Part shown: positions 3,549-62,258 of the stretch, one piece after another
Layout of the letters: the number at the start of each line of letters is the position of its first letter
Numbering within the stretch: position 1 is the first letter of the stretch
Source of the DNA: Bacteroidota bacterium
Lineage (GTDB): Bacteria > Bacteroidota > Bacteroidia > Flavobacteriales > Flavobacteriaceae
Assembly (NCBI GenBank): GCA_040387655.1
Contig: JAZKDI010000003.1
Coordinates: 177,659-241,658 of the forward strand
Direction: 5' to 3'
DNA: 64,000 bases
Made by a program: the position numbers and the translations under genes
Notes under the pieces: generated by a model
Databases searched by the model: none
Told to the model about the DNA's origin: nothing
What the model saw: the letters and a program-made list of their open reading frames with translations, nothing else

Positions 3549-4946
3549 TTAAAGTGAATTGATAAAATCCAATAATTCATTTCTCTTATCGGTTGCCAAT
3601 TGCTTGAATTTAACTTTAGCATTTTCTGCTTCCCCGCCATGCCATAAAATAGCTTCGGTAACATTCTTTGCCCTACCATCGTGTAATAAATTAGTGTGGT
3701 TGTTGACCGTCTGAATCAATCCAATTCCCCACAAAGGCGGTGTTCTCCATTCGTTACCAGTCGCTAAATAATCCGGTGCATTATCGGCTAAATTTATCCC
3801 CATATCGTGGAGCAATAAATCGGTGTAAGGTCTAATTGTTTGGTTTCTTAAAGCCGTAATTGAGTGTGTGTTTCCTGTTTGTATTTTTGGGATATGACAA
3901 GCGGTACATCCTATGATTTCAAAAGTTTTTTTCCCTTTCAAAACATTTTGTTTGTTATAATTTCTTCGTGCCGGAACTGATAAAGTACTGGAATACAAGA
4001 CTACTTTATTCAAATTTGAATCGGATATTTCTGGTGAACCCCCATTTGAAATCAAATTACAATCTACACCTGGTGGACAATTTTCATTAGGAAACAAACT
4101 AGTGGTAATTCCCATATCGCCTAAAAAAGCTCCTGCAACCTGTTGCTTGATATTGGGTTGATTTGCTTTCCATCCAAAACGACCTAGTTTTTGAGTATTG
4201 GAAACAACATCATAAACATAATTTGGTTTACCCGAAATACCGTCCCCATTTGCATCATTTACATCGGCGAATGCCAGAATAATATCTTCGGAAATGGCTT
4301 CCAATAATCCAAGTCCAATCATTTGATTTGCAACTCGAGGAGAAACCTGTAAATTGGCTGCCATAGCGCCATAACCTAAAGTATTGAATTGGTAAATTGG
4401 TTTTTTTAATAGTACTTCCGTTCCATCTGCTAAAGTTTCTGTCATGGATTCAAAAGTAATGTTGAATTTTCCTTTTATGGTTTGGCCTAAAATAGCATTG
4501 TCCTGCAATTGACCTCCATAACTTGGATCTGCAAAAGAACTTCCATTAGAATTAGTTCCCGGAATGCTTAATCTTAAAAGCAATCCATGAGCCGTTTCTC
4601 CATCAAATAAAGGAGTCCTTCCACGGCCATCCTTAAAGTGACAACTGGAACAGGAATTGGCATTAAAAAAAGGACCTAAACCATCCCTTGCTGTGGTTGA
4701 TGCGGGAGCAGTAACCCAACTTTGCCTAAAAAAAGAATTTCCTATTCCGAAATCAGATTTTTCATCTGAAGTTAGATTGTGTGAAAAAAAACCAAAAGCC
4801 TCTTCAGTTTCATTAAACACGGTTGCATCGCCTCCCGAATATTGTTCACCCTCTTCGGCAGTCAATAAAACATATTCATCATCATTCCCACAACTAAAAA
4901 ATTGTGTGACAATCAATAAAATAAATACTAAATGAGTTCTTCTCAT
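3549..4946 (-). CDS. Di-heme oxidoreductase family lipoprotein (DUF1111 / thiol oxidoreductase-like)
   Basis: Two CxxCH motifs (CSSCH, CTACH), YTDLLLHDMG, WRTPPLWGIG and LLHDGRA motifs, lipobox FFSC. ATG at 4946 preferred over TTG at 4955. Confidence 0.85.
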   Translation of the reverse strand: MRRTHLVFILLIVTQFFSCGNDDEYVLLTAEEGEQYSGGDATVFNETEEAFGFFSHNLTSDEKSDFGIGNSFFRQSWVTAPASTTARDGLGPFFNANSCSSCHFKDGRGRTPLFDGETAHGLLLRLSIPGTNSNGSSFADPSYGGQLQDNAILGQTIKGKFNITFESMTETLADGTEVLLKKPIYQFNTLGYGAMAANLQVSPRVANQMIGLGLLEAISEDIILAFADVNDANGDGISGKPNYVYDVVSNTQKLGRFGWKANQPNIKQQVAGAFLGDMGITTSLFPNENCPPGVDCNLISNGGSPEISDSNLNKVVLYSSTLSVPARRNYNKQNVLKGKKTFEIIGCTACHIPKIQTGNTHSITALRNQTIRPYTDLLLHDMGINLADNAPDYLATGNEWRTPPLWGIGLIQTVNNHTNLLHDGRAKNVTEAILWHGGEAENAKVKFKQLATDKRNELLDFINSL

Positions 4947-4952
4947 ACTTTG

Positions 4953-4960
4953 CAAAAATA
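4953..4960 (-). promoter_or_regulatory. -7 box TATTTTTG for the di-heme gene
   Basis: CAAAAATA on +, ending 6 nt before the ATG. Confidence 0.5.
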
Positions 4961-5010: not shown

Positions 5011-6171
5011 TTATCCGTTAACCGTAATTCCGATTTTTGAAGCACCTGCTAATAAATTAGCACCAAAATCCTGTAATTGCAAAACTGCCGCTTTTACTTT
5101 TGCTCCTTCAGTTGAACTTGCCCCTCCTGAAATAGCCAAATCAAATGGAATCAAAATCGCAGCCACTTTAGCTAAAGAAGCGTTTAGGGAAACATCGGTA
5201 GAATCATACGCTTCTTCATTAGCTTGTTTTACTAAATCTTCTAATGATGCACCATCAATTGAACCATATTTTCCTTGATATACGTTAATAACCCCTTGTA
5301 GGTTTAAGGCAATATCTCGGTGTGTATTATCGCTAAAACAAGAATGTTCATCTTCCTGATCTGCATTACCCAATGCTACATCCATACGTTCAATAGGCAA
5401 TTCTGCAGATACCAAAGTAGTAATTCCCAAATAAATATTCTTAATCGCTACATTTGAAGCTAAACCTAGAAATGTAGTTCTATAAGCTCCACCCACTTTC
5501 CATTGGTTCACCATATAATCTAAATTATCTGTCAACAAATCGGCACAAGCTTTTAAATAGTCTTTTCTTCTTGTTTGATTTGAGGCAGTTCCTCCAGTCA
5601 CATAATCAGTATATGGTCTTAAACCAGATTGATTTGCAGATGGCGCTGTTAAATCCTGACCCCAAAGTAAAAATTCTATGGCGTGATAACCAACGCTGAT
5701 GTTTTTTTCCCCTCCCGATTCATTCAATCCTTCTAAAATTGATTTATTGATTACTGGAAACAATCCTACATTATTTATTATCCCTGCCGTTGTGTTTCCC
5801 TGTACATAATCTACATAATTTTCATCTAAAGGCCAAGCATTCATCAATCCTTCAGGGCCATTTTCATCGTCTATAGGTCCATTCGCAAAACGAAAAGCTT
5901 CAGTTGTACCATAACTTTCCCTGGACTGTTTCCATTTGGCTTTAGCAGTATCAAAATTAGCTTGTGTAGGCGTTGTTGTAAAAGTAGTTATTGCAGTTTC
6001 CAATTCGACTGCATCATCATAAGCTTGCTTGTAATTGGCGTAAGCAATAGCTGCATAGTTTTCTATTACTTGCCTTTTCGTTACATCATTATTGGATTCC
6101 TCTTTATTGCAGGACACAATAAAAAAAGTCAAACCAAAAATAATTATTGACCCAAGAAATATTTTTTTCAT
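5011..6171 (-). CDS. Imelysin family lipoprotein (IrpA/IcmP-like)
   Basis: Lipobox IVSC, NAWPLDE, GYHAIEFLLWG (GxHxxE), DEHSCFSDNT. Confidence 0.85.
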   Translation of the reverse strand: MKKIFLGSIIIFGLTFFIVSCNKEESNNDVTKRQVIENYAAIAYANYKQAYDDAVELETAITTFTTTPTQANFDTAKAKWKQSRESYGTTEAFRFANGPIDDENGPEGLMNAWPLDENYVDYVQGNTTAGIINNVGLFPVINKSILEGLNESGGEKNISVGYHAIEFLLWGQDLTAPSANQSGLRPYTDYVTGGTASNQTRRKDYLKACADLLTDNLDYMVNQWKVGGAYRTTFLGLASNVAIKNIYLGITTLVSAELPIERMDVALGNADQEDEHSCFSDNTHRDIALNLQGVINVYQGKYGSIDGASLEDLVKQANEEAYDSTDVSLNASLAKVAAILIPFDLAISGGASSTEGAKVKAAVLQLQDFGANLLAGASKIGITVNG

Positions 6172-6204
6172 AATTCCCTATTATTAAAACAGTTATTTTT
6201 TTGG

Positions 6205-6212
6205 CAAAAATA
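6205..6212 (-). promoter_or_regulatory. -7 box TATTTTTG, leftward promoter
   Basis: CAAAAATA on +; a TTG lies 18 nt upstream (6231-6233). Confidence 0.6.
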
Positions 6213-6236
6213 CATACTTTTTAAAATAATCAATCC

Positions 6237-6259
6237 TTATTTAGAATAATTTAAAATAA
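6237..6259. promoter_or_regulatory. Fur-box-like imperfect palindrome 1
   Basis: TTATTTAGAATAATTTAAAATAA, a variant of TTATTTAGAATnATTCTAAATAA. Confidence 0.65.
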
Positions 6260-6283
6260 ATTTTTTTATTCCAAAATTGATTT

Positions 6284-6291
6284 TATATTTG
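6284..6291 (+). promoter_or_regulatory. -7 box TATATTTG, rightward promoter
   Basis: Exact TAnnTTTG 38 nt before the ATG at 6330. Confidence 0.65.
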
Positions 6292-6299
6292 CACCATAA

Positions 6300-6322
6300 T
6301 TATTCTTAATCATTCTAAATAA
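6300..6322. promoter_or_regulatory. Fur-box-like imperfect palindrome 2
   Basis: TTATTCTTAATCATTCTAAATAA (reverse complement TTATTTAGAATGATTAAGAATAA), lying between the -7 box and the ATG. Confidence 0.65.
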
Positions 6323-6329
6323 ACACAAA

Positions 6330-7556
6330 ATGAAATTTAAAAATTTATTACTTGCCGCATTACCAATTATAGCAATAACATTCACATCTTGTTCAGATGA
6401 TGATGCTTCGCCAGAAGTTTTTGACTACACAACGCCTGATACTTACAGTTTTGAAAGAGAAACAACTTCTACTGTAGATTTTTCTGCATCTACATCACGT
6501 TTATTGATGTTAGATCAAATGGGGAAATACATTTCTACCCAAGCAACTGCTTCTGCAATTGTAGATGACAATCGTTTATCTGCAATGTTCTCAAATACAG
6601 GTGCTGAAACATTTTTTACTGGAGCGGCTTTAGCGACTGGAATTCAATTGAAAGACAAAACAGCAGGATCAAAAGATTACTTCGTTACTTATTTAGGTGG
6701 AGGAACTTTAGCAGAACAAACTGCAGTTAGAGCTCTATTTGAAACTCAATTCGACAATGCAAAACTAGCAAGTTTAGGAACTGTTGCTGCTCCTGGAGTA
6801 GCTGGTAAATACAGTACAAACAGATTGTTTGCCGCGAATGGATTAGAGCCAGGACAAGTATTGGCAAAAGGAATGATGGGAGCTTGTTTGATGGATCAAA
6901 TCGTAAACAATTATTTAAGCAAAAGTATATTGGACCAAGGGTCAAACAAAGCAGACAATACTAATGGCGTTTTGGTTTCTGGAAAATCATATACTGCTAT
7001 GGAACATGCTTGGGATGAAGCGTATGGTTTAATCTATGGAGCTGATGTTGCCGCTACAGGAAGTACAGCTGCATCTTATAAATTCTGGAGTTCTTATATC
7101 AACCAAGTAAATGCTGATGTTGATTTTAATACTTTAAGAGCAGATATTGATTTGGCTTTCCGTACCGGTAGAGCAGCAATCGTTGCGCATGATTATGCTG
7201 AGCGTGATAATCAAGCTAAAATCATTAAAGAAAAATTAGCAATTGTTCCTGCTGTAAGAGCTGTATTTTACATGAATGAAGGTAAATCTAAATTAACTAC
7301 AGATGGTGGAGCTGCTGCTTTTCACGGATTTTCAGAAGGATACGGTTTCATTATGTCATTACGTTACACTAACAAACCTGGAACTAACACCCCATACTTT
7401 ACAAAAGCAGAGGTTGATGCCATGTTAGCATCACTAATAAGTGGTCCAAATGGTTTATGGGATATTGACCATGTAGGGGCGAAATCTGATGCTATTGCTT
7501 TACAAATAGCTACAAGATTTGGCTTCACAGTTGAACAAGCTATCCTTGTTAACTAA
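6330..7556 (+). CDS. DUF4856-like lipoprotein
   Basis: Lipobox FTSC; MEHAWDEAYG and FHGFSEGYGF motifs; context of the imelysin/HTTM/TBDR cluster. Confidence 0.7.
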   Translation: MKFKNLLLAALPIIAITFTSCSDDDASPEVFDYTTPDTYSFERETTSTVDFSASTSRLLMLDQMGKYISTQATASAIVDDNRLSAMFSNTGAETFFTGAALATGIQLKDKTAGSKDYFVTYLGGGTLAEQTAVRALFETQFDNAKLASLGTVAAPGVAGKYSTNRLFAANGLEPGQVLAKGMMGACLMDQIVNNYLSKSILDQGSNKADNTNGVLVSGKSYTAMEHAWDEAYGLIYGADVAATGSTAASYKFWSSYINQVNADVDFNTLRADIDLAFRTGRAAIVAHDYAERDNQAKIIKEKLAIVPAVRAVFYMNEGKSKLTTDGGAAAFHGFSEGYGFIMSLRYTNKPGTNTPYFTKAEVDAMLASLISGPNGLWDIDHVGAKSDAIALQIATRFGFTVEQAILVN

Positions 7557-7633: not shown

Positions 7634-8746
7634 ATGAAAAAGATAATCTTATTAGGTTTGTTAGTTATTATTTCAGCTTGTTCTTCAAGCGGAAGCGGTT
7701 CTGAAGACAATGGCGATAATTATGACAGAACTGTTCTCTTAACCAATTGGGCTGATAATATTATCGTTCCTAGCTATGAAAATTATCAAACAAAAATAGA
7801 TTTATTGATAGCTAGTACCAGCACCTTTACAACTGCACCAACCGCTATTAATCTTCAAACATTAAGGGCTTCGTGGTTAGATGCATACAAAGCATTTCAA
7901 TATACAACAATGTATAATTTCGGAAAAGCAGAAGAAGTTTATTATAATGAAACTTCCAATACTTACCCAACAAATACAACAGGAATTGAAACCAATATCA
8001 GTTCTGGAACTTACAACCTTACTTTGATATCCCAATTTGACAAGCAAGGTTTCCCAGCTTTGGATTATCTTATAAACGGACTTGGAACAACAGATTCTGC
8101 TATAGTTAGTTTTTACACAACTAATCCCAATGCCTTGAAATACAAAGATTATTTAACCGCTGTTACAACAAGATTGAAATCGACTATTGATTTGGTTGTA
8201 ACCGATTGGAACACTAGTTTTAGGGATACTTACATTGCTAATAACGGAAATACCGTTAGCAGTTCAGTAAACAAGACAACCAATAATTTTGTAAAGAACC
8301 TTGAAAAAACGGTACGTACAGGAAAAATAGGAATCCCTGCTGGAGTGTTTTCTGCAGGAACAAAATATCCAGAAAAAGTAGAAGCTTTTTATAAAAACGA
8401 TGCTTCAAAAATATTACTCGACGAATCAATAAGAGCTGTTCAGGATTTTTTTAACGGAAAGCATTTTGGAACTTCAACAACAGGAGCAAGCTTAAAAGGA
8501 TATTTGGATTTTTTAAATACCGTTAGGGATGGTGAAAAATTAAGTGACATTATCAATACGCAATTCAATACTATTTACATCACAAATAATGTATTGTCAA
8601 CTAGTTTTTCACAACAGATAAACACTGATAATACCAAGATGATTAATTCATACGATGCTTTACAGCAAAATGTAATCTATACTAAACTTGACATGATGCA
8701 GGCTTTAAACATAACAATAGATTATGTTGATGGCGATGGCGATTAA
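7634..8746 (+). CDS. Imelysin family lipoprotein 2 (lacks HxxE)
   Basis: Lipobox ISAC, NTYPTN, GFPALDYL, acidic C-terminus DYVDGDGD. Confidence 0.8.
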   Translation: MKKIILLGLLVIISACSSSGSGSEDNGDNYDRTVLLTNWADNIIVPSYENYQTKIDLLIASTSTFTTAPTAINLQTLRASWLDAYKAFQYTTMYNFGKAEEVYYNETSNTYPTNTTGIETNISSGTYNLTLISQFDKQGFPALDYLINGLGTTDSAIVSFYTTNPNALKYKDYLTAVTTRLKSTIDLVVTDWNTSFRDTYIANNGNTVSSSVNKTTNNFVKNLEKTVRTGKIGIPAGVFSAGTKYPEKVEAFYKNDASKILLDESIRAVQDFFNGKHFGTSTTGASLKGYLDFLNTVRDGEKLSDIINTQFNTIYITNNVLSTSFSQQINTDNTKMINSYDALQQNVIYTKLDMMQALNITIDYVDGDGD

Positions 8747-8748
8747 TT

Positions 8749-10116
8749 ATGAACAGCATCAATAAATACCTGAATACGTATTCACAGTCTACAACGCTAG
8801 CTTTTTTTAGGCTAGCGTTTGGTTTTATGATGCTTTTAAGTTTGATTCGGTTTGCTGCCTACGGTTGGATTGAAAAGTTTTATATAAAACCTCAATTTCA
8901 CTTTACCTATTATGGATTTGAATGGGTAAAACCTATTGGAAATTACACATATGCCCTATTTATAATTTGTGGAGTTGCGGCTTTTTTTGTGGCTATTGGA
9001 TATAAATATAAATTAGCGATTGTTACTTTCTTTTTGAGTTTCACTTATATCGAATTAATGGACAAAACCACCTATTTGAACCATTATTACTTTATTACCG
9101 TAATTAGTTTTGTACTGATTTTTTTGCCAGCAAATTGTAATTTTTCAGTCGATGCCAATAGAGATTCAAAACTGGCTTTTGAAAAAATTCCACGTTGGAA
9201 CACCGACATATTAAAATTGTTGTTGGCTGTAGTATATATTTATGCAGGTATAGCAAAGATTAATTCCGATTGGTTATTGGAAGCAATGCCTTTAAAAATA
9301 TGGTTACCGGGAAATACGGAGTTGCCCATTATTGGAACCCTTTTAAATAAAAACTGGATCCATTATGCTTTCAGTTGGACTGGAATGTTTTATGACCTTA
9401 CAATCGTTTTTTTATTGTTGTATAAACGAACGCGTGTTTTTGGTTTTATGTTAGTTGTGGTATTTCACATTTTAACACGGATATTATTTCCTATTGGAAT
9501 TTTTCCGTATGTGATGATTATAAGTTCATTATTGTTTTTTGAAGCCGGTTTTCATAGAAAATGCTTAGTTTATTTTTCAAAAATCACGAAATACAGGCTG
9601 GCACTTTCTGAAAATGGAAAAGAAAAGAAATCGAATTCAGATAGCTTGTCTCACAAGATTCAAATAGGGATTTTGTCTAGTTTTATATTGTTTCAACTAT
9701 TGTTTCCTTTTCGCTATCTATTATATAAAGATGAATTATTCTGGACAGAAGAAGGTTATCGCTTTTCATGGCGGGTAATGCTTATGGAAAAGGCGGGTTA
9801 TACGCAGTTTGTAGTTTCTGACAAGAATACAAAACAAAATATCAGGGTGAACAACAGCCAGTTTTTAACTCCGTTTCAGGAAAAACAAATGGCCTTCCAA
9901 CCTGATTTTATATTGGAATATGCACATCATTTACACGACTATTATCAAAAAAAAGGAATGCAAAACCCAGAAGTGCGAGTCGAAAGTTATGTTGCCCTCA
10001 ACGGAAGATTAAGTAAAAAATACATTGACCCTAAAATAAATTTAGCCATAGAAAATGAATCATTCAAACACAAAACCTGGATATTGCCTTTCAATGATTC
10101 CATCCAAGGGTTTTAG
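8749..10116 (+). CDS. HTTM domain / vitamin K-dependent gamma-carboxylase-like membrane protein
   Basis: Multiple transmembrane segments; DKTTYLNHYYF, YAGIAKINSDWL, GYRFSWRVML and ALNGR..IDP motifs resemble GGCX. Confidence 0.85.
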   Translation: MNSINKYLNTYSQSTTLAFFRLAFGFMMLLSLIRFAAYGWIEKFYIKPQFHFTYYGFEWVKPIGNYTYALFIICGVAAFFVAIGYKYKLAIVTFFLSFTYIELMDKTTYLNHYYFITVISFVLIFLPANCNFSVDANRDSKLAFEKIPRWNTDILKLLLAVVYIYAGIAKINSDWLLEAMPLKIWLPGNTELPIIGTLLNKNWIHYAFSWTGMFYDLTIVFLLLYKRTRVFGFMLVVVFHILTRILFPIGIFPYVMIISSLLFFEAGFHRKCLVYFSKITKYRLALSENGKEKKSNSDSLSHKIQIGILSSFILFQLLFPFRYLLYKDELFWTEEGYRFSWRVMLMEKAGYTQFVVSDKNTKQNIRVNNSQFLTPFQEKQMAFQPDFILEYAHHLHDYYQKKGMQNPEVRVESYVALNGRLSKKYIDPKINLAIENESFKHKTWILPFNDSIQGF

Positions 10117-12532
10117 TATAATCTTGTTTTTCTTATTATCCATAACTAGCTTCTCACAAAATAAAATTTGGGGAGTGATCACCAATACTAATGGCGAAAA
10201 ATTATCCTATGTAGAAGTTTATAACAAAACTTCCGGAACAAAACAAATAACCGACTCAAAAGGGGAATTTACCATAGAAAATGACAGTCCCGGCGAATAT
10301 GAAATTGTTTTTTATAAAGACAACTATGTGATTTTAGAAAAAACACTTTCTACCTCAGCCATTAAAACAACTATTGTTTTAGATAAAGTAAATACTATTT
10401 CAGAAGTAGTCATCAATGGTCAAAAGGAAAAATTATTTGCACTAAATAAATTAAAGGACATTGAGGAAACTGCTATATATGCTGGAAAAAAAACAGAAGT
10501 AATTTCGTTGAATAAAATTACTGCTAACAAGGCTACCAACAATGCCCGACAAATTTTTGCGCAAGTTGTGGGCCTAACAATCAATGAAAGTTCAGATGGT
10601 GGATTACAGCTAAGTATTGGTGGCAGGGGATTGGATCCCAACCGAACTTCTAATTTTAATACACGTCAAAACGGCTATGATATTAGTGCCGATGTTTTGG
10701 GCTATCCAGAAAGTTATTATGCAACTCCTACCGAAGCATTGGAAGAAATTCAAGTTATCCGTGGGGCGGCTTCTTTACAGTACGGAACACAATTTGGCGG
10801 TTTGGTAAATTTCAAAACCAAGACTCCTAGTTTAAAACAAATCGAATTTACTACCAGAAATACAATCGGTTCATATAATTTATATACCAATTTCACTTCC
10901 TTGAGCGGAACAAAAGGAAAATTCAGTTACTATACTTTTTTTAATTTCAAAAAAGGGGATGGATTCAGACCGAATTCTCAATTTGACAGTAAAAATTATT
11001 TCGCCAACCTTAATTATCAGTTTACATCAAAAACTTCCGTCCATTTTGATTATACTCATTTTAATTATTTAGCCCAACAAGCGGGAGGGCTTACGGATGT
11101 TATGTTTAACGACAATTCGCAACAAAGCAATAGAACCCGGAATTGGTTTGCTATAAACTGGAACTTATTTGCCTTGAGATTAAAACATAAAATTACTCCT
11201 ACTGCAGATTTCTCCTTACAATTATTTGGTTTGGATGCCAGTCGAAAAGCTATTGGATACCGTTCCAATAGGGTTTCAAACCCTGACACTCCAGATACTG
11301 TAAGGGATTTAATTATTGGTGGTTTTGTTAATTGGGGTGCAGAAGCGCGATTTTTAAAGCGTTATAAATTTCTAGGAAACAGCAGTGCTTTTTTAATCGG
11401 AAGTAAATATTATCAATCAGAAAATACCGCAATTCAAGGTCCAGGAAGTTCTGGCACTAATGCCAATTTTAATGTGGCCGACAGCGAATTCCCATTTTAT
11501 GCCAACCAATCGAATTATACGTTTCCCAATTTAAATATTTCAGTTTTTGGGGAAAACATTTTTAAAATCACACCCAAATTTTCAGTAACCCCGGGTTTTA
11601 GATTTGAAAGGATAAAAACGCAGGCGATAGGTTCATACCGAAAAATAAATCTTGATTTGGCAGGAAATGTAATCTTGGACCAGACGATTAAAGAAAACAA
11701 CATCAAAGACCGAAATTTTGTTTTTTTAGGAATTGGGTTGAGTTACAAACCAAAAAACAGATTGGAATTTTACGGAAACGTTTCTCAAAACTACCGCTCA
11801 GTTACCTTTAACGACATCAGAACAGTTAGTCCCAGTCAAGTAATCTCTGCCGATATTACTGATGAAAGAGGCTATACATCCGATATTGGAATCAGGGGTC
11901 AATTAGGTACTAAAGTTACTTTTGACACCAGTATTTATGGGCTGTATTACAATGATAAAATCGGTGAATATGAAACCACGAACCCAAATGGTGCAGCGGC
12001 AATAGTTCGTTTTCGTGACAATATAGGAACAGCATTGACTTATGGTTTTGAAACCATGATTGACTGGAGTTTGAGTAAAACATTTTTTAGTAAAAATGAA
12101 AATTTTACATGGAACTTATTTACGAATTCAGCAATAACCAATTCTGAATATTTAAAATCCGATGCACCCAATATTGAAGGAAACAAAGTAGAATTCGTGC
12201 CGCTTTTCAATTTCAAAACGGGTACGGGAATAGGTTATAAAAATTTTATGTCGAGTATTCAGTTTACGTATGTATCATCACAGTTTACAGATGCAAACAA
12301 TAGTATGACTGACCCAAACGACAATACTTACGGTATTTTTGGACAGATTCCCGCATATTATGTAGCTGACATTTCCGCTTCCTATAAATGGAGAAGGTTT
12401 AAATTGGAAGCCGGGATTTCGAACTTTACCAACAACAACTATTTTACACGAAGAGCAACAGGTTATCCAGGTCCTGGAATTATTCCATCTGACACAAGAA
12501 CATTTTATACGACGCTGGAATTTATATTTTAA
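10094..12532 (+). CDS. TonB-dependent receptor (FecA-like) with N-terminal carboxypeptidase-regulatory-like domain
   Basis: Plug motifs GGRGLDPNR and IRGAASLQYG; barrel ending in F (TLEFIF). ATG at 10094 gives a clean signal peptide. Confidence 0.9.
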   Translation: MIPSKGFSIILFFLLSITSFSQNKIWGVITNTNGEKLSYVEVYNKTSGTKQITDSKGEFTIENDSPGEYEIVFYKDNYVILEKTLSTSAIKTTIVLDKVNTISEVVINGQKEKLFALNKLKDIEETAIYAGKKTEVISLNKITANKATNNARQIFAQVVGLTINESSDGGLQLSIGGRGLDPNRTSNFNTRQNGYDISADVLGYPESYYATPTEALEEIQVIRGAASLQYGTQFGGLVNFKTKTPSLKQIEFTTRNTIGSYNLYTNFTSLSGTKGKFSYYTFFNFKKGDGFRPNSQFDSKNYFANLNYQFTSKTSVHFDYTHFNYLAQQAGGLTDVMFNDNSQQSNRTRNWFAINWNLFALRLKHKITPTADFSLQLFGLDASRKAIGYRSNRVSNPDTPDTVRDLIIGGFVNWGAEARFLKRYKFLGNSSAFLIGSKYYQSENTAIQGPGSSGTNANFNVADSEFPFYANQSNYTFPNLNISVFGENIFKITPKFSVTPGFRFERIKTQAIGSYRKINLDLAGNVILDQTIKENNIKDRNFVFLGIGLSYKPKNRLEFYGNVSQNYRSVTFNDIRTVSPSQVISADITDERGYTSDIGIRGQLGTKVTFDTSIYGLYYNDKIGEYETTNPNGAAAIVRFRDNIGTALTYGFETMIDWSLSKTFFSKNENFTWNLFTNSAITNSEYLKSDAPNIEGNKVEFVPLFNFKTGTGIGYKNFMSSIQFTYVSSQFTDANNSMTDPNDNTYGIFGQIPAYYVADISASYKWRRFKLEAGISNFTNNNYFTRRATGYPGPGIIPSDTRTFYTTLEFIF

Positions 12533-13317
12533 ATCGTAGAATGCAGTGCCTTAAAATAATCGAAGGCTTTTAAAAGGCGGCTTCCGTACCAAGAAAACAT
12601 TTCGCCATCAACGAGAATAATTTTTGCTTTTGGGATAAATTGCTGGATATCTGCAATGTGTTTTTCTTTGAACGGATAAGGTTCTGAGGACAATAAGACC
12701 AATTCGGGATTCCCTTTTTCAGTAATTCTCTCCAGTTGAATTTCTGGATAACGTCCTTCATCATATATATTCTGAAAATGATTCAGTTTTAATAATTCAT
12801 TGATAAAATTATCACTGCCAGCTACCATATATGGCTTTGCCCAAATAAAATAAGCAGTTTTTTTGAATGGTTTTTCTTTTATAAAAATTTGGAAATCGTG
12901 ATAGGCTGCATCAATTTTATCAACCCATTTACGGGCTTCATTTTCACAGTCCAACAATTTTCCGAAATCGGAAATCATTTGTTGATTGTCTTCAACAGTA
13001 ATAATGTTAGTTACCCAAACAGGACATATTTGTGACAATTGCTCAACGATTTCTTTGGTATTTTCTTCTTTATTGGCAATAATCAAATCGGGTTGCAGTG
13101 CTTTGATTTTATCAAAATGAATGTTTTTTGTACCACCAATTATTTGTTTTGTCTTTTTAAAACCAACTGGATGCACGCAGAATTTAGTCAAACCTATTAA
13201 TTTCGATTCCTGTCCTAAATCATAAATCAATTCCGTTTGAGAAGGAACCAATGATATAATTCTTTGAGGTAAAATTTCGAATGAATGAGTAATGCCAATT
13301 TGGTCAATCAGTTTCAT
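12529..13317 (-). CDS. Helical-backbone metal receptor (BtuF/cobalamin-binding-like)
   Basis: RIISLVPSQTE, GGTKN, PDLIIANKEEN and DGEMFSWYG motifs. Confidence 0.8.
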   Translation of the reverse strand: MKLIDQIGITHSFEILPQRIISLVPSQTELIYDLGQESKLIGLTKFCVHPVGFKKTKQIIGGTKNIHFDKIKALQPDLIIANKEENTKEIVEQLSQICPVWVTNIITVEDNQQMISDFGKLLDCENEARKWVDKIDAAYHDFQIFIKEKPFKKTAYFIWAKPYMVAGSDNFINELLKLNHFQNIYDEGRYPEIQLERITEKGNPELVLLSSEPYPFKEKHIADIQQFIPKAKIILVDGEMFSWYGSRLLKAFDYFKALHSTI

Positions 13318-61463: not shown

Positions 61464-62258
61464 TTACTGGTCATTATTATCCAATTCCTTTTCGATTTTA
61501 TTGTTGACAAGGTAGTTTGATTTCTCATTATTTTCCCCCTTATAAATGAAAATTATATTATGGTAAAAGTGCATCGAAATTATATTTTTATCATAATATG
61601 TTTTTTCATAATTATCAATCATAAATTCCTCATTGTTTAAACAATCTATAAGTGATTTAAAATAATTATAAATTGTTCCTTTTAAATTCAGATTATTTGA
61701 ATCACCTCCGTATGATTTCCAATAAGAGGTTTGAGTATCTTCGATTACATAAATACCGTCTTTTTTGAGTTTTGGAAAAAGAATTTCGAATGTTTTAATG
61801 ACGTGTTCGTTTATATGACTTCCATCATCTATTATTAAATCAAATTCTCCTGCCTCATTACATATAGTTTCTAATAAACTTTTATCGACCTGACTTCCTT
61901 TAAATATCTTTATTCTATTTTCCTGTAAAAAAGATTTGTCATAAATATCCAGTGAAAATATTTTTGCAAATGGAAAATAACTTTTCCACATCCTTAAAGA
62001 ATTTCCTCCTGTATATGGGCAGTCATATCCGCCTACCCCAATTTCTAATAATTTGATTTTTTTTAATTTATAAGGACGAAAATTTTTTTGGTAATGTGGT
62101 GTATAAAAATGTTGTCCAAACTTATCAGTTCTGTGAATTAAAGCAAGTTTAGACAAATTAAAATGGAAGAATAGTGATTTCAAACTTCTAATTTTATAAA
62201 GAAATTTTAGCTTTTTTTCTTCTGATAAATTTCTTTTTATTTTTTCAATAAATCTCAT
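61464..62258 (-). CDS. Sugar O-methyltransferase-like protein (MycE/TylE type)
   Basis: LLEIGVGGY, SLRMWK, GSQVD, IIDDGSH, YVIEDTQTSYW. Confidence 0.8.
   Translation of the reverse strand: MRFIEKIKRNLSEEKKLKFLYKIRSLKSLFFHFNLSKLALIHRTDKFGQHFYTPHYQKNFRPYKLKKIKLLEIGVGGYDCPYTGGNSLRMWKSYFPFAKIFSLDIYDKSFLQENRIKIFKGSQVDKSLLETICNEAGEFDLIIDDGSHINEHVIKTFEILFPKLKKDGIYVIEDTQTSYWKSYGGDSNNLNLKGTIYNYFKSLIDCLNNEEFMIDNYEKTYYDKNIISMHFYHNIIFIYKGENNEKSNYLVNNKIEKELDNNDQ

What the first reader, a model, noticed from the sequence alone, without database searches (positions are those of the whole stretch)
8749..10116. Bacterial GGCX homolog keeps a His/Lys pair with the catalytic spacing
Seen: H112 in DKTTYLNHYY (codon 9082) and K170 in YAGIAKINSDW (codon 9256) are 58 residues apart. 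Recalled from memory, not checked here: human gamma-glutamyl carboxylase uses H160 (DKTSWNNHSY) and K218 (AGVKKLDADW), also 58 apart, and flavobacteria respire with menaquinone (vitamin K2). Inference: the enzyme may activate menaquinol/O2 to carboxylate Glu residues on co-encoded exported proteins, creating Gla metal-binding sites. Alternatively it may act only as an epoxidase or redox enzyme, as reported for the Leptospira ortholog.
Basis: partly seen in the sequence, partly recalled or inferred. Interest (0 to 1): 0.75.

Follow-up and report, generated by a model that had tools for sequence, protein, structure and literature searches.

The report
Vitamin-K-carboxylase homolog in iron operon
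A Flavobacterium gene encodes a cut-down relative of the human clotting enzyme gamma-glutamyl carboxylase with its catalytic residues intact, set in an iron-starvation uptake operon beside an imelysin-like lipoprotein, which gives a testable partner for a bacterial enzyme family of unknown function.

Summary
ORF 8749-10116 (455 aa) has the Pfam domains HTTM and VKGC_lumenal_dom. It aligns to human GGCX residues 55-505 (E=2e-42), and its AlphaFold model matches only GGCX structures in the PDB (TM 0.84). H112 aligns with H160 and K170 with K218. The equal 58-residue spacing simply follows from an ungapped homologous alignment.

The rest of the catalytic core is also kept: N159, D263, W223, F286, H287, F294 and F299. 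It is nearly invariant in 116 diverse homologs. That bacterial orthologues conserve these residues is already published.

Missing or changed are the Glu-interaction loop (4 of 12 identical), K217, N158, R436, H404, the whole clamp B/C-terminal propeptide site, any Gla-type substrate, and VKOR.

The gene belongs to a conserved operon: DUF4856, imelysin, VKGC homolog, TonB receptor. A Fur-box-like site lies upstream. The Riemerella orthologs are induced by iron limitation and listed as Fur-regulated.

In 301 Bacteroidota genomes, 54 of 75 such genes lie within 2.5 kb of an imelysin gene. The partner imelysin carries an invariant, probably flexible C-terminal D-x-D-G-D tail.

My best reading is a menaquinol/O2-driven enzyme that modifies its imelysin partner. 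Epoxidase-only action remains a strong rival. Activity is untested.

The parts
8749..10116 (+). VKGC/GGCX homolog, 455 aa ('type A', imelysin-coupled): HTTM membrane domain (residues 13-266) plus a clamp-A-like lumenal/periplasmic domain (302-450). No clamp B and no C-terminal domain.
   Evidence: Pfam HTTM 3e-78 and VKGC_lumenal_dom 2.5e-59; phmmer against PDB GGCX E=2e-42; AF2 pLDDT 89.5; Foldseek matches GGCX only, TM 0.84; the only HTTM gene in the genome.
9079..9084 (+). Codons N111-H112, equivalent to human N159-H160 (hold the substrate carboxylate; H160 couples epoxidation to carbanion formation).
   Evidence: each kept in 115 of 116 diverse homologs; 87 of 87 type A sequences.
9256..9258 (+). 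Codon K170, equivalent to human K218 (the base that deprotonates the quinol). The preceding A169 replaces human K217.
   Evidence: K in 113 of 116.
9394..9396 (+). Codon D216, equivalent to human D263 (assists K218).
   Evidence: D in 110 of 116.
9502..9504 (+). Codon F252, equivalent to human F299 (stacks on CO2 and forms the quinone pocket).
   Evidence: F in 116 of 116.
9751..9786 (+). Loop E335-M346 (EGYRFSWRVMLM), equivalent to human 393-404 (GLYGYSWDMMVH). It is diverged and carries a bacterial signature with conserved R338 and R342.
   Evidence: 4 of 12 identical; R338 in 100 of 116, R342 as R or K in 84 of 116, and the Y395 equivalent variable; in type A the Y395 position is Y in 56 and F in 30.
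7634..8746 (+). IPPA-type imelysin-like lipoprotein (IMEL2), the conserved partner. Its stop codon is 2 nt before the VKGC start. It lacks the His of GxHxxE (G139-F-P-A-L-D144).
   Evidence: Pfam Peptidase_M75 4.6e-21; directly upstream of the VKGC gene in the great majority of 80 related loci; AF2 pLDDT 92.1.
8720..8743 (+). Extreme C-terminal tail of IMEL2, D363-Y-V-D-G-D-G-D370. Consensus D-[YF]-x-D-x-D-G-D at the free C-terminus.
   Evidence: All full-length IMEL2 copies listed end in DGD. Also seen in divergent copies. Predicted as coil, with mean pLDDT 61 for the last 10 residues. It is the only ORF in the genome with this ending.
6330..7556 (+). DUF4856 lipoprotein, first gene of the operon. 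Weak similarity to FEA1-related lipoproteins. An acidic stretch (CSDDD) follows the lipobox Cys.
   Evidence: Pfam DUF4856 6e-122; NF038033 at 4.6e-5, below its cut-off; present in most related loci.
10094..12532 (+). TonB-dependent receptor. The likely start, ATG 10094, overlaps the VKGC stop by 23 nt.
   Evidence: Pfam Plug, TonB_dep_Rec_b-barrel and CarboxypepD_reg; sequence; directly downstream in nearly all related loci.
6172..6329 (.). Divergent promoter region. A Fur-box-like palindrome lies at 6239-6257, and a weaker second copy near 6302-6320 was read by eye.
   Evidence: 2 mismatches to the Riemerella Fur consensus ATTTAGAATTATTCTAAAT. The window holds 4 strand matches at two palindromic sites, against 0.46 expected; sequence.
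5011..6171 (-). Canonical imelysin (IMEL1, with the GYHAIE motif) on the divergent arm.
   Evidence: Pfam Peptidase_M75 8e-65; NCBIfam LruB-type hit below cut-off. This arm is present in only some Flavobacterium loci.
3549..4955 (-). Di-haem oxidoreductase (DHOR/DUF1111) lipoprotein on the divergent arm.
   Evidence: Pfam DHOR 9e-103.

Best explanation
[quoted passage not shown] It has the membrane (HTTM) catalytic domain and the first lumenal 'clamp A' domain, but lacks the metazoan propeptide-binding clamp B and C-terminal domain. It is the inner-membrane member of a conserved operon (DUF4856 lipoprotein, IPPA-type imelysin, VKGC homolog, TonB-dependent receptor) that is probably switched on by iron starvation. 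Inferred mechanism: with its active site on the periplasmic face, K170 (helped by D216) deprotonates menaquinol. Oxygenation of the quinolate then gives a strong base. That base removes a proton next to a carboxylate held by N111/H112 and the aromatic residue 337. CO2 held against F252 is added to the carbanion. The most likely substrate is an acidic residue of its dedicated partner, the imelysin-like lipoprotein encoded 2 nt upstream. The prime candidate site is the invariant, flexible C-terminal D-x-D-G-D tail. The product would be a malonate-type (Gla-like or carboxy-Asp) metal ligand serving iron capture or hand-over in the periplasm. Homology, the intact catalytic core and the operon link are shown. 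Iron regulation is shown only for the Riemerella ortholog. The chemistry and the substrate are inferred.
For: Homology and fold. Catalytic core kept in the window protein and nearly invariant in 116 diverse homologs: N159, H160, K218, D263, W223, F286, H287, F294, F299. H160 and F299 matter specifically for carboxylation: H160 is needed for carbanion formation and coupling, and F299/H160 for CO2 trapping (PMC12647623; PMC13187478). Their invariance therefore argues for more than plain quinol oxidation. Unlike the truncated giant-virus 'epoxidases', this protein keeps the segment equivalent to human 374-418 (PMC13486548). A bacterial VKGC relative, MloH, does carboxylate an Asp residue (PMC12647623; PMC12186529). 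Partner: the imelysin gene lies directly upstream in the great majority of 80 related loci. It is also adjacent in two of four ~34%-identical homologs from other lineages. In 301 sampled Bacteroidota genomes, 54 of 75 VKGC-type genes lie within 2.5 kb of an imelysin gene. The tail ending in DGD is invariant and predicted flexible. Conserved basic residues R338, R342 and K348 sit in the loop that lines the substrate pocket in GGCX. Iron link: Fur-box-like site. The Riemerella cluster of TBDR, 'vitamin K-dependent gamma-carboxylase', imelysin and a hypothetical protein is induced 2.1-3.1-fold by iron restriction and listed among putative Fur-regulated genes (PMC5609570). MenA is present. No VKOR is present, which suits a low-turnover modification better than a high-flux redox cycle.
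Against: No activity data exist for this family. The Glu-interaction loop is diverged (4 of 12 identical). From my own knowledge, not checked here, this is the feature Rishavy et al. 2005 linked to the Leptospira ortholog's lack of carboxylase activity. The Y395 equivalent alternates between Y and F, so its hydroxyl is not required. N158, K217, R436, H404, E82 and M401 are replaced. The acidic tail is not strictly tied to an adjacent VKGC gene. One genome keeps DUF4856-imelysin(tail)-TBDR with the VKGC gene absent (L107). In another, a tail-bearing imelysin sits in an imelysin-DHOR-imelysin operon about 1.75 Mb from the type A VKGC gene (L108, L121). The tail could equally be a metal-binding or docking motif. 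No complex could be modelled with these tools.
Confidence: 0.4

Rival explanations
1. Epoxidase or oxygenase only. The enzyme oxidises menaquinol with O2, as reported for the Leptospira ortholog, and carboxylates nothing. The strong base or the oxygen consumption would serve another step of the imelysin/di-haem iron pathway, for example a deprotonation or local redox control near iron.
For: K170, D216 and the quinone pocket are intact. The Glu-interaction loop and several substrate-contact residues are diverged. No Gla-type substrates were found. Giant-virus relatives are interpreted as epoxidases (PMC13486548). The Leptospira result is from my own knowledge; the paper was not retrievable.
Against: Residues needed for carboxylation and not for epoxidation (H160, F299, N159) are almost invariant. 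Without VKOR, every turnover would destroy a menaquinone, which is a poor design for a flux-bearing redox role. The Leptospira enzyme was, as I recall, assayed only with non-native substrates.
Confidence: 0.3
2. Menaquinol:ferric reductase. The quinolate formed by K170 passes electrons to Fe(III) that the imelysin's acidic tail carries into the pocket, where the N111/H112 carboxylate site would sit next to the metal. Fe(II) is then released for uptake. No O2, CO2 or epoxide is involved.
For: The operon encodes no other inner-membrane component. The system is iron-related. Absence of VKOR is no problem if no epoxide forms. The acidic tail resembles a metal carrier. This is inference only.
Against: No precedent exists in the family. 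It does not explain the invariance of the CO2-stacking F252 and the whole GGCX-like pocket. Some relatives add a separate iron permease (an unchecked earlier scan note), which does not speak for or against this rival.
Confidence: 0.1
3. Literal first-reader model. A propeptide-guided, processive Glu-to-Gla carboxylase acts on several co-encoded exported proteins: both imelysins, DUF4856 and the TonB receptor.
For: The catalytic core is conserved and the active site should face the periplasm.
Against: Clamp B and the C-terminal domain are absent, and the propeptide contact residues are not conserved. The Gla pattern gives 0 hits in the genome. The divergent imelysin/DHOR arm is absent from most loci, so it cannot be an obligate substrate.
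Confidence: 0.05
4. Non-catalytic role. The protein acts as a membrane anchor, scaffold or conduit that receives iron or the imelysin at the inner membrane.
For: It is the only inner-membrane protein of the operon. One genome has lost it yet keeps the other three genes (L107), so it may be accessory.
Against: The catalytic residues are almost invariant across at least 116 clusters at 50% identity or less. That degree of conservation is not expected for a scaffold.
Confidence: 0.05

Closest known systems
[quoted passage not shown]
   Same: Same fold over the whole bacterial protein (TM 0.84). 26% identity over 432 aligned residues. Shared residues: K218, D263, N159, H160, W223, F286, H287, F294, F299, S398, W399, M402, R476 and W501.
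   Different: 455 aa against 758 aa: no clamp B jelly-roll and no C-terminal domain, so no two-part propeptide cleft. K217, N158, R436, H404, E82 and the C99-C450 disulfide are replaced. Loop 393-404 is 4 of 12 identical. No Gla-domain substrates and no VKOR in the genome. It sits in an iron-uptake operon.
Leptospira VKD carboxylase ortholog (Rishavy et al., J Biol Chem 2005; from my own knowledge, paper not retrievable)
   Same: A bacterial GGCX homolog with a conserved catalytic Lys and a diverged Glu-interaction region. Leptospira also has an iron- and peroxide-induced imelysin (LruB) / cytochrome-c-domain peroxidase / imelysin operon (PMC7567364).
   Different: It was reported as an epoxidase with no detectable carboxylase activity on standard substrates. 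Whether it is adjacent to, or works with, the Leptospira imelysins was not tested here.
MloH, VKDC-like carboxylase of malonomycin biosynthesis (Streptomyces; Law et al. 2018, as cited in PMC12647623 and PMC12186529)
   Same: A bacterial member of the family reported to carboxylate, and it acts on an Asp residue, not a Glu.
   Different: Its substrate is a PKS/NRPS-bound small-molecule intermediate, not a lipoprotein. It lies in a secondary-metabolite cluster and carries a fused extra domain.
Riemerella anatipestifer cluster RAYM_09779-09794 (PMC5609570)
   Same: Same gene set: TonB receptor, 'vitamin K-dependent gamma-carboxylase', imelysin lipoprotein and a hypothetical protein. Induced 2.1-3.1-fold by iron restriction and listed among putative Fur-regulated genes. 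Its Fur box matches the site at 6239-6257 with 2 mismatches.
   Different: It appears only as transcriptome table entries. No function was assigned or discussed.
Fur-regulated imelysin / di-haem (DUF1111) / IPPA-type imelysin operons (P. aeruginosa PA4370-4372, V. cholerae VC1264-1266; PMC3143127) and EfeUOB
   Same: A canonical GxHxxE imelysin, a di-haem oxidoreductase and a His-less IPPA-type imelysin are all present in the window. The role is iron uptake.
   Different: Those descriptions include no VKGC homolog. Here the IPPA-type imelysin is instead coupled to the VKGC homolog, DUF4856 and a TonB receptor.

Membership tests
Vitamin K-dependent carboxylase family (Pfam HTTM PF05090 + VKGC_lumenal_dom PF22777) | Both Pfam domains score above their curated cut-offs | tested here: met
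   HTTM 263 bits (cut-off 27.7) and VKGC_lumenal_dom 200 bits (cut-off 27.7).
Vitamin K-dependent carboxylase family | GGCX fold | tested here: met
   AF2 model pLDDT 89.5. Foldseek against the PDB returns only GGCX chains at E<=0.001, with TM 0.80-0.84 normalised to the query for most of them.
Vitamin K-dependent carboxylase family | Quinol-deprotonating base K218 with D263 | tested here: met
   K170 and D216, kept in 113 and 110 of 116 homologs.
Vitamin K-dependent carboxylase family | Carboxylate and carbanion residues N159 and H160 | tested here: met
   N111 and H112, each kept in 115 of 116 homologs.
Vitamin K-dependent carboxylase family | Y395 (hydrogen bond to the Glu carboxyl and stacking on the upstream residue) | tested here: inconclusive
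   The window protein has Y337. In the imelysin-coupled subfamily this position is Y in 56, F in 30 and M in 1. Family-wide it is F, Y, H or M.
Vitamin K-dependent carboxylase family | Naphthoquinone/CO2 pocket: W223, F286, H287, F294, F299 | tested here: met
   W175, F239, H240, F247 and F252. F239 and F252 are kept in 116 of 116.
Metazoan-type protein Glu carboxylase (GGCX in the strict sense) | Conserved Glu-interaction loop 393-404 (GLYGYSWDMMVH) | tested here: not met
   EGYRFSWRVMLM, 4 of 12 identical. A distinct bacterial signature is present.
Metazoan-type protein Glu carboxylase (GGCX in the strict sense) | Two-part propeptide exosite: clamp A plus clamp B, C-terminal domain, and contacts Y415, Y425, L426, V430, F431 | tested here: not met
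   The alignment ends at human residue 505 and the protein at residue 455, so there is no clamp B or C-terminal domain. The contact positions are V356, R366, V367, Q371 and F372, and they vary across the family.
Metazoan-type protein Glu carboxylase (GGCX in the strict sense) | K217, N158, R436, H404 and E82 (substrate and cap coupling residues) | tested here: not met
   A169, L110, Q380, M346 and F35.
Metazoan-type protein Glu carboxylase (GGCX in the strict sense) | Substrates with a propeptide plus a Gla domain encoded in the genome | tested here: not met
Vitamin K cycle | VKOR present to recycle the quinone epoxide | tested here: not met
   PF07884 gives no match in the 100%-complete genome.
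Vitamin K cycle | Naphthoquinone cofactor made by the cell | tested here: met
   MenA (TIGR00751) scores 252.6 bits, above its cut-off.
Vitamin K-dependent carboxylase family | Measured epoxidase and/or carboxylase activity | not testable with these tools
   Needs biochemistry.
Fur-regulated imelysin-type iron-uptake systems | Imelysin-like protein(s), a di-haem oxidoreductase and an outer-membrane receptor in one locus | tested here: met
   Peptidase_M75 twice, DHOR and a TonB-dependent receptor. The four-gene core is conserved in about 80 loci.
Fur-regulated imelysin-type iron-uptake systems | Regulation by iron and Fur | tested here: inconclusive
   One Fur-box-like palindrome in the shared promoter, with 2 mismatches to the Riemerella consensus. 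The orthologous Riemerella genes are iron-induced.

The most novel reading that the evidence does not exclude
Bacterial VKGC homologs would have a physiological protein substrate. In iron-starved aerobic Bacteroidota, and in the other lineages that carry the gene pair, the enzyme would use menaquinol, O2 and CO2 to carboxylate Asp residues of the invariant C-terminal D-x-D-G-D tail of its dedicated IPPA-type imelysin. The product would be a carboxy-Asp (malonate-type) metal-binding arm used in iron uptake. This would be the first vitamin K-dependent protein carboxylation described outside animals, and it would act on Asp where the animal enzyme acts on Glu.
Probability: 0.2. Interest if true: 0.85.

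Novelty: new variant of a known kind. Interest (0 to 1): 0.55.

Why it matters
[quoted passage not shown] The only protein-level biochemistry I know of is the Leptospira enzyme, which showed epoxidase activity with no known substrate.

This operon offers three things. It names a specific, conserved candidate partner, one imelysin-like lipoprotein with an invariant acidic tail. It gives a physiological condition, iron starvation. It also gives clear genetic and mass-spectrometric tests.

If the enzyme carboxylates its partner, Gla-type metal-binding chemistry would extend to bacterial iron acquisition. It would also assign a biochemical role to imelysin-like proteins, whose function is likewise unknown.

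If the enzyme is only an epoxidase, the result would still define a new use of menaquinol and O2 chemistry in the periplasm.

The His/Lys observation itself is ordinary. It follows from homology, and conservation of these residues in bacterial orthologues has already been published (PMC12647623).

Tried and rejected
1. I treated the 58-residue spacing as possible independent evidence and rejected that. The alignment between the two residues has no gaps, so equal spacing follows from homology.

2. I tested whether the acidic tail is exclusive to imelysins adjacent to a VKGC gene. It is not strictly so. L107 has the operon without the VKGC gene, and L108 has a tail-bearing imelysin in an imelysin-DHOR-imelysin operon. 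At genome level the association still holds. In the fetched loci the tail-less imelysins are canonical or PIBO-like types paired with DHOR, in VKGC-less and VKGC-bearing genomes alike. G171 keeps an unlinked type A enzyme.

3. I looked for the tail in the solved IPPA structure 3pf0 by phmmer with the whole protein and with its C-terminal half. The C-terminus was not aligned. The imelysin structure paper says only that the last six IPPA residues are disordered.

4. A search for a Gla-domain pattern in the genome gave none.

5. Literature searches for 'HTTM' with 'imelysin' and for 'DUF4856' found no papers.

6. I tried to retrieve Rishavy et al. 2005 and Rishavy & Berkner 2008. Neither is held.

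8. Residue-level structural superposition was not possible because the tools return no model coordinates.

9. I considered that the enzyme is the system's iron permease. I rated this low because the catalytic residues are invariant.
Full report
**Observation**

ORF 8749-10116 on the + strand is open for 455 codons. DKTTYLNHYY begins at residue 105, which puts His at 112 (codon 9082). YAGIAKINSDW begins at residue 165, which puts Lys at 170 (codon 9256). The two are 58 residues apart.

Pfam finds HTTM (3e-78, residues 13-266) and VKGC_lumenal_dom (2.5e-59, residues 302-450). phmmer against all PDB chains finds only human GGCX (E=2.2e-42), aligning query 8-448 to human 55-505. I parsed that alignment. 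H112 pairs with H160 and K170 pairs with K218, with no gap between them.

The equal spacing is a consequence of homology, not an extra coincidence.

An AlphaFold2 model built on 29 sequences is confident (pLDDT 89.5, pTM 0.90). In a Foldseek search of the PDB its only significant matches are 16 GGCX entries. The best has E=8e-24 and TM 0.84 normalised to the query over 461 columns. The next hit has E=0.05. Coordinates are not returned, so residue-level superposition was not measured.

**How much of the GGCX machinery is there**

I took residue roles from the 2025-26 cryo-EM papers (PMC12589487; PMC12647623; PMC13187478) and mapped them.

Kept:
- K218→K170 and D263→D216 (quinol deprotonation).
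- N159→N111 and H160→H112 (hold the substrate carboxylate; H160 couples epoxidation to carbanion formation).
- Y395→Y337.
- W223→W175, F286→F239, H287→H240, F294→F247 and F299→F252 (quinone and CO2 pocket).
- S398, W399, M402, R476 and W501.
- R406→K348.

Replaced:
- K217→A169, N158→L110, R436→Q380, H404→M346, E82→F35, S300→P253, N290→T243, M401→V343 and H440→Q384.
- The C99-C450 disulfide.

The loop equivalent to human 393-404 reads EGYRFSWRVMLM against GLYGYSWDMMVH, 4 of 12 identical. The protein stops at the equivalent of human residue ~505. It therefore has a clamp-A-like domain but no clamp B jelly-roll and no C-terminal domain. In GGCX these form the other half of the propeptide cleft. 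The clamp A propeptide contacts (Y415, Y425, L426, V430, F431) are not conserved.

**Family-wide conservation**

An exhaustive phmmer search of 1.84 billion cluster representatives finds 1,655 clusters at E<=1e-30. In 116 full-length representatives (33-63% identical to the query) the counts out of 116 are:
- N111: 115
- H112: 115
- K170: 113
- D216: 110
- W175: 115
- F239: 116
- F252: 116
- H240: 112

The Y395 equivalent is not conserved (F 40, Y 34, H 21, M 11). The loop has its own signature, E/Q-G-x-R-F-S-W-R-V-M-L, with R338 in 100 and R342 as R or K in 84.

That bacterial orthologues conserve the KH2-deprotonation and CO2-stabilising residues has already been published (PMC12647623, discussion and Fig. 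6b).

**Context**

The gene is the third of four tightly packed genes:
- DUF4856 lipoprotein (6330-7556).
- Imelysin-like lipoprotein (7634-8746), whose stop is 2 nt before the VKGC start.
- The VKGC homolog.
- A TonB-dependent receptor whose likely ATG at 10094 overlaps the VKGC stop by 23 nt.

A canonical imelysin (5011-6171) and a di-haem oxidoreductase (3549-4955) are transcribed divergently from the same 158-bp region.

Of 80 related loci from GTDB species genomes (Flavobacteriales, Cytophagales, Chitinophagales/Saprospiraceae and Balneolales), nearly all have DUF4856, imelysin, VKGC and TBDR in this order. The divergent arm occurs in only a dozen Flavobacterium loci.

Four distant homologs (~34% identity) were looked up in unnamed metagenome contigs:
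- One sits in imelysin-DHOR-imelysin-VKGC.
- One sits in DUF4856-imelysin-VKGC.
- One has no imelysin.
- One lies on a contig too short to tell.

An even sample of 301 Bacteroidota genomes gave these counts:
- 63 genomes carry 75 VKGC_lumenal genes.
- 54 of those genes lie within 2.5 kb of an imelysin gene.
- 57 of 74 imelysin genes lie next to a VKGC gene.

The family is patchy: only 3 of 12 sampled genomes of the same genus have it. The own genome has a single HTTM gene.

**Two paralog classes**

The VKGC-type genes that do not sit beside an imelysin form a second class, which I call type B. Their neighbours are housekeeping genes such as ribF and serS.

Type B is closer to human GGCX at several pocket positions (N158, N290, M401). 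The imelysin-coupled type A has L110, T243 and V343, plus invariant R34, E102, E347 and K348, and Q384 at 99%. The window protein is type A.

**Iron link**

The shared promoter contains a palindrome at 6239-6257 with 2 mismatches to the Riemerella anatipestifer Fur consensus. The window holds 4 strand matches at two palindromic sites, against 0.46 expected from shuffles. A second copy near 6302-6320, read by eye, has 4 mismatches.

In Riemerella, four consecutive genes are induced 2.1-3.1-fold by iron restriction and are listed among putative Fur-regulated genes (PMC5609570):
- RAYM_09779 (TonB-dependent receptor)
- RAYM_09789 (imelysin)
- RAYM_09794 (hypothetical protein)

Imelysin/DUF1111 operons are known Fur-regulated iron systems (PMC3143127). 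No paper in the library mentions HTTM together with imelysin, or DUF4856 at all.

**The partner and its tail**

The imelysin at 7634-8746 lacks the His of the GxHxxE motif (it reads GFPALD), as in the IPPA family described in PMC3143127.

All full-length operon copies end exactly at ...D-[YF]-x-D-x-D-G-D. Divergent copies end NFADNDGD, TYASNDGD, TYQDNDGD and TYSSGDGD. The two distant ones end SDADGDSSL and AEGDND. Canonical imelysins end differently, for example GITVNG.

The AF2 model of this imelysin is confident (pLDDT 92.1). After the last helix (325-357) the chain is coil, with mean pLDDT 61 for the last ten residues. It is the only ORF of at least 100 residues in the genome with such an ending.

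I noticed this tail before consulting earlier scan notes. Several of those notes describe the same tail in other genomes. They are not independent evidence.

Two observations qualify the 'always paired' idea:
- Genome G238 keeps DUF4856-imelysin(tail)-TBDR with the VKGC gene cleanly absent (L107).
- Genome G171 has a tail-bearing imelysin in an imelysin-DHOR-imelysin operon (L108), while its type A VKGC gene stands alone about 1.75 Mb away (L121).

In the fetched loci, tail-bearing imelysins occur almost only in genomes with a type A enzyme. The tail is not strictly dependent on an adjacent VKGC gene.

**Other requirements**

MenA is present, so menaquinone should be made. No VKOR is present in a genome rated 100% complete, so a quinone epoxide could not be recycled the animal way. 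The basic-rich short loops (KRTR at 226-229; eight K/R in 264-299) fit the cytoplasmic side. This agrees with the GGCX topology and places the active site and lumenal domain in the periplasm.

**Interpretation**

Homology, an intact catalytic core and a dedicated genomic partnership with an imelysin-like lipoprotein in an iron-starvation operon are well supported. What the enzyme does is inference.

I favour carboxylation, or a closely related base-driven modification, of an acidic residue on the partner imelysin (confidence 0.4). The reasons are:
- The residues that matter for carboxylation and not for epoxidation (H160, N159, F299) are essentially invariant.
- The segment missing from viral 'epoxidases' is present.
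- A bacterial relative, MloH, carboxylates an Asp residue.
- Conserved basic residues line the loop that forms the substrate pocket.
- Lack of VKOR suits a low-turnover modification.

The tail is the best candidate site, but it is only a candidate (0.2).

The main rival is epoxidase-only action, as I recall was reported for Leptospira (0.3). The diverged Glu loop, the Y/F alternation at the Y395 position and the absence of any Gla-type substrate support that rival. A quinol:Fe(III) reductase, a literal propeptide-guided Gla system and a non-catalytic role are less likely.

**Novelty and score**

The His/Lys observation is correct but ordinary, and in general terms already published. The protein is a distinct, truncated variant of a known enzyme family in a conserved context that has not been studied. 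It makes the old question 'what do bacterial VKGC homologs do?' directly testable. Interest is 0.55.

Noticed in passing
L088-L095, L097-L103, L122-L125 (other Bacteroidota genomes): A second paralog class of HTTM + VKGC_lumenal proteins ('type B', motifs LMQKSSYNNHYYLL and GHRLSWRMM) is not next to any imelysin. It sits by housekeeping genes (ribF, serS) and sometimes a large secreted metalloprotease-like gene. It is closer to human GGCX at pocket positions N158, N290 and M401 than the imelysin-coupled class is.
   Followed up: partly
L107 (G238:C16:52000-66000): A genome of the same genus has the operon DUF4856-imelysin-TBDR with the VKGC gene cleanly missing, about 100 bp between imelysin and receptor. 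The imelysin still ends IDYVDSDGD. No VKGC_lumenal domain was found anywhere in that genome.
   Followed up: partly
L108 and L121 (G171, contig C2): A tail-bearing IPPA-type imelysin sits in an imelysin-DHOR-imelysin operon, while a type A VKGC homolog stands alone about 1.75 Mb away. The pair can be unlinked within one genome.
   Followed up: partly
window 61655-61673: A second palindrome in the window matches the Riemerella Fur-box consensus with 2 mismatches (ATTTATAATTATTTTAAAT on the - strand). Its neighbouring genes were not examined.
   Followed up: no
window 6330-7556: The DUF4856 lipoprotein has a weak, sub-threshold match to NCBIfam 'FEA1-related lipoprotein' (E=4.6e-5). An acidic CSDDD stretch follows the lipobox Cys, which resembles the Bacteroidota surface-export signal as I recall it. 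It may be the surface iron-binding partner of the receptor.
   Followed up: no
window 12529-13317 (-): A Peripla_BP_2 periplasmic binding protein gene converges on the end of the TonB receptor gene. A homolog lies in the same place in L005 and L007, so it may be a loosely associated part of the uptake system in Flavobacterium.
   Followed up: no
L014:5557-6891: One metagenome-assembled Bacteroidota locus has a second HTTM-family gene directly after the TonB receptor, giving two copies in one cluster.
   Followed up: no
L085:9408-9848: A distant VKGC homolog (34% identity) with no imelysin nearby is followed by a 146-aa ORF with no Pfam hit on record. This may be a different partner in that lineage.
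   Followed up: no
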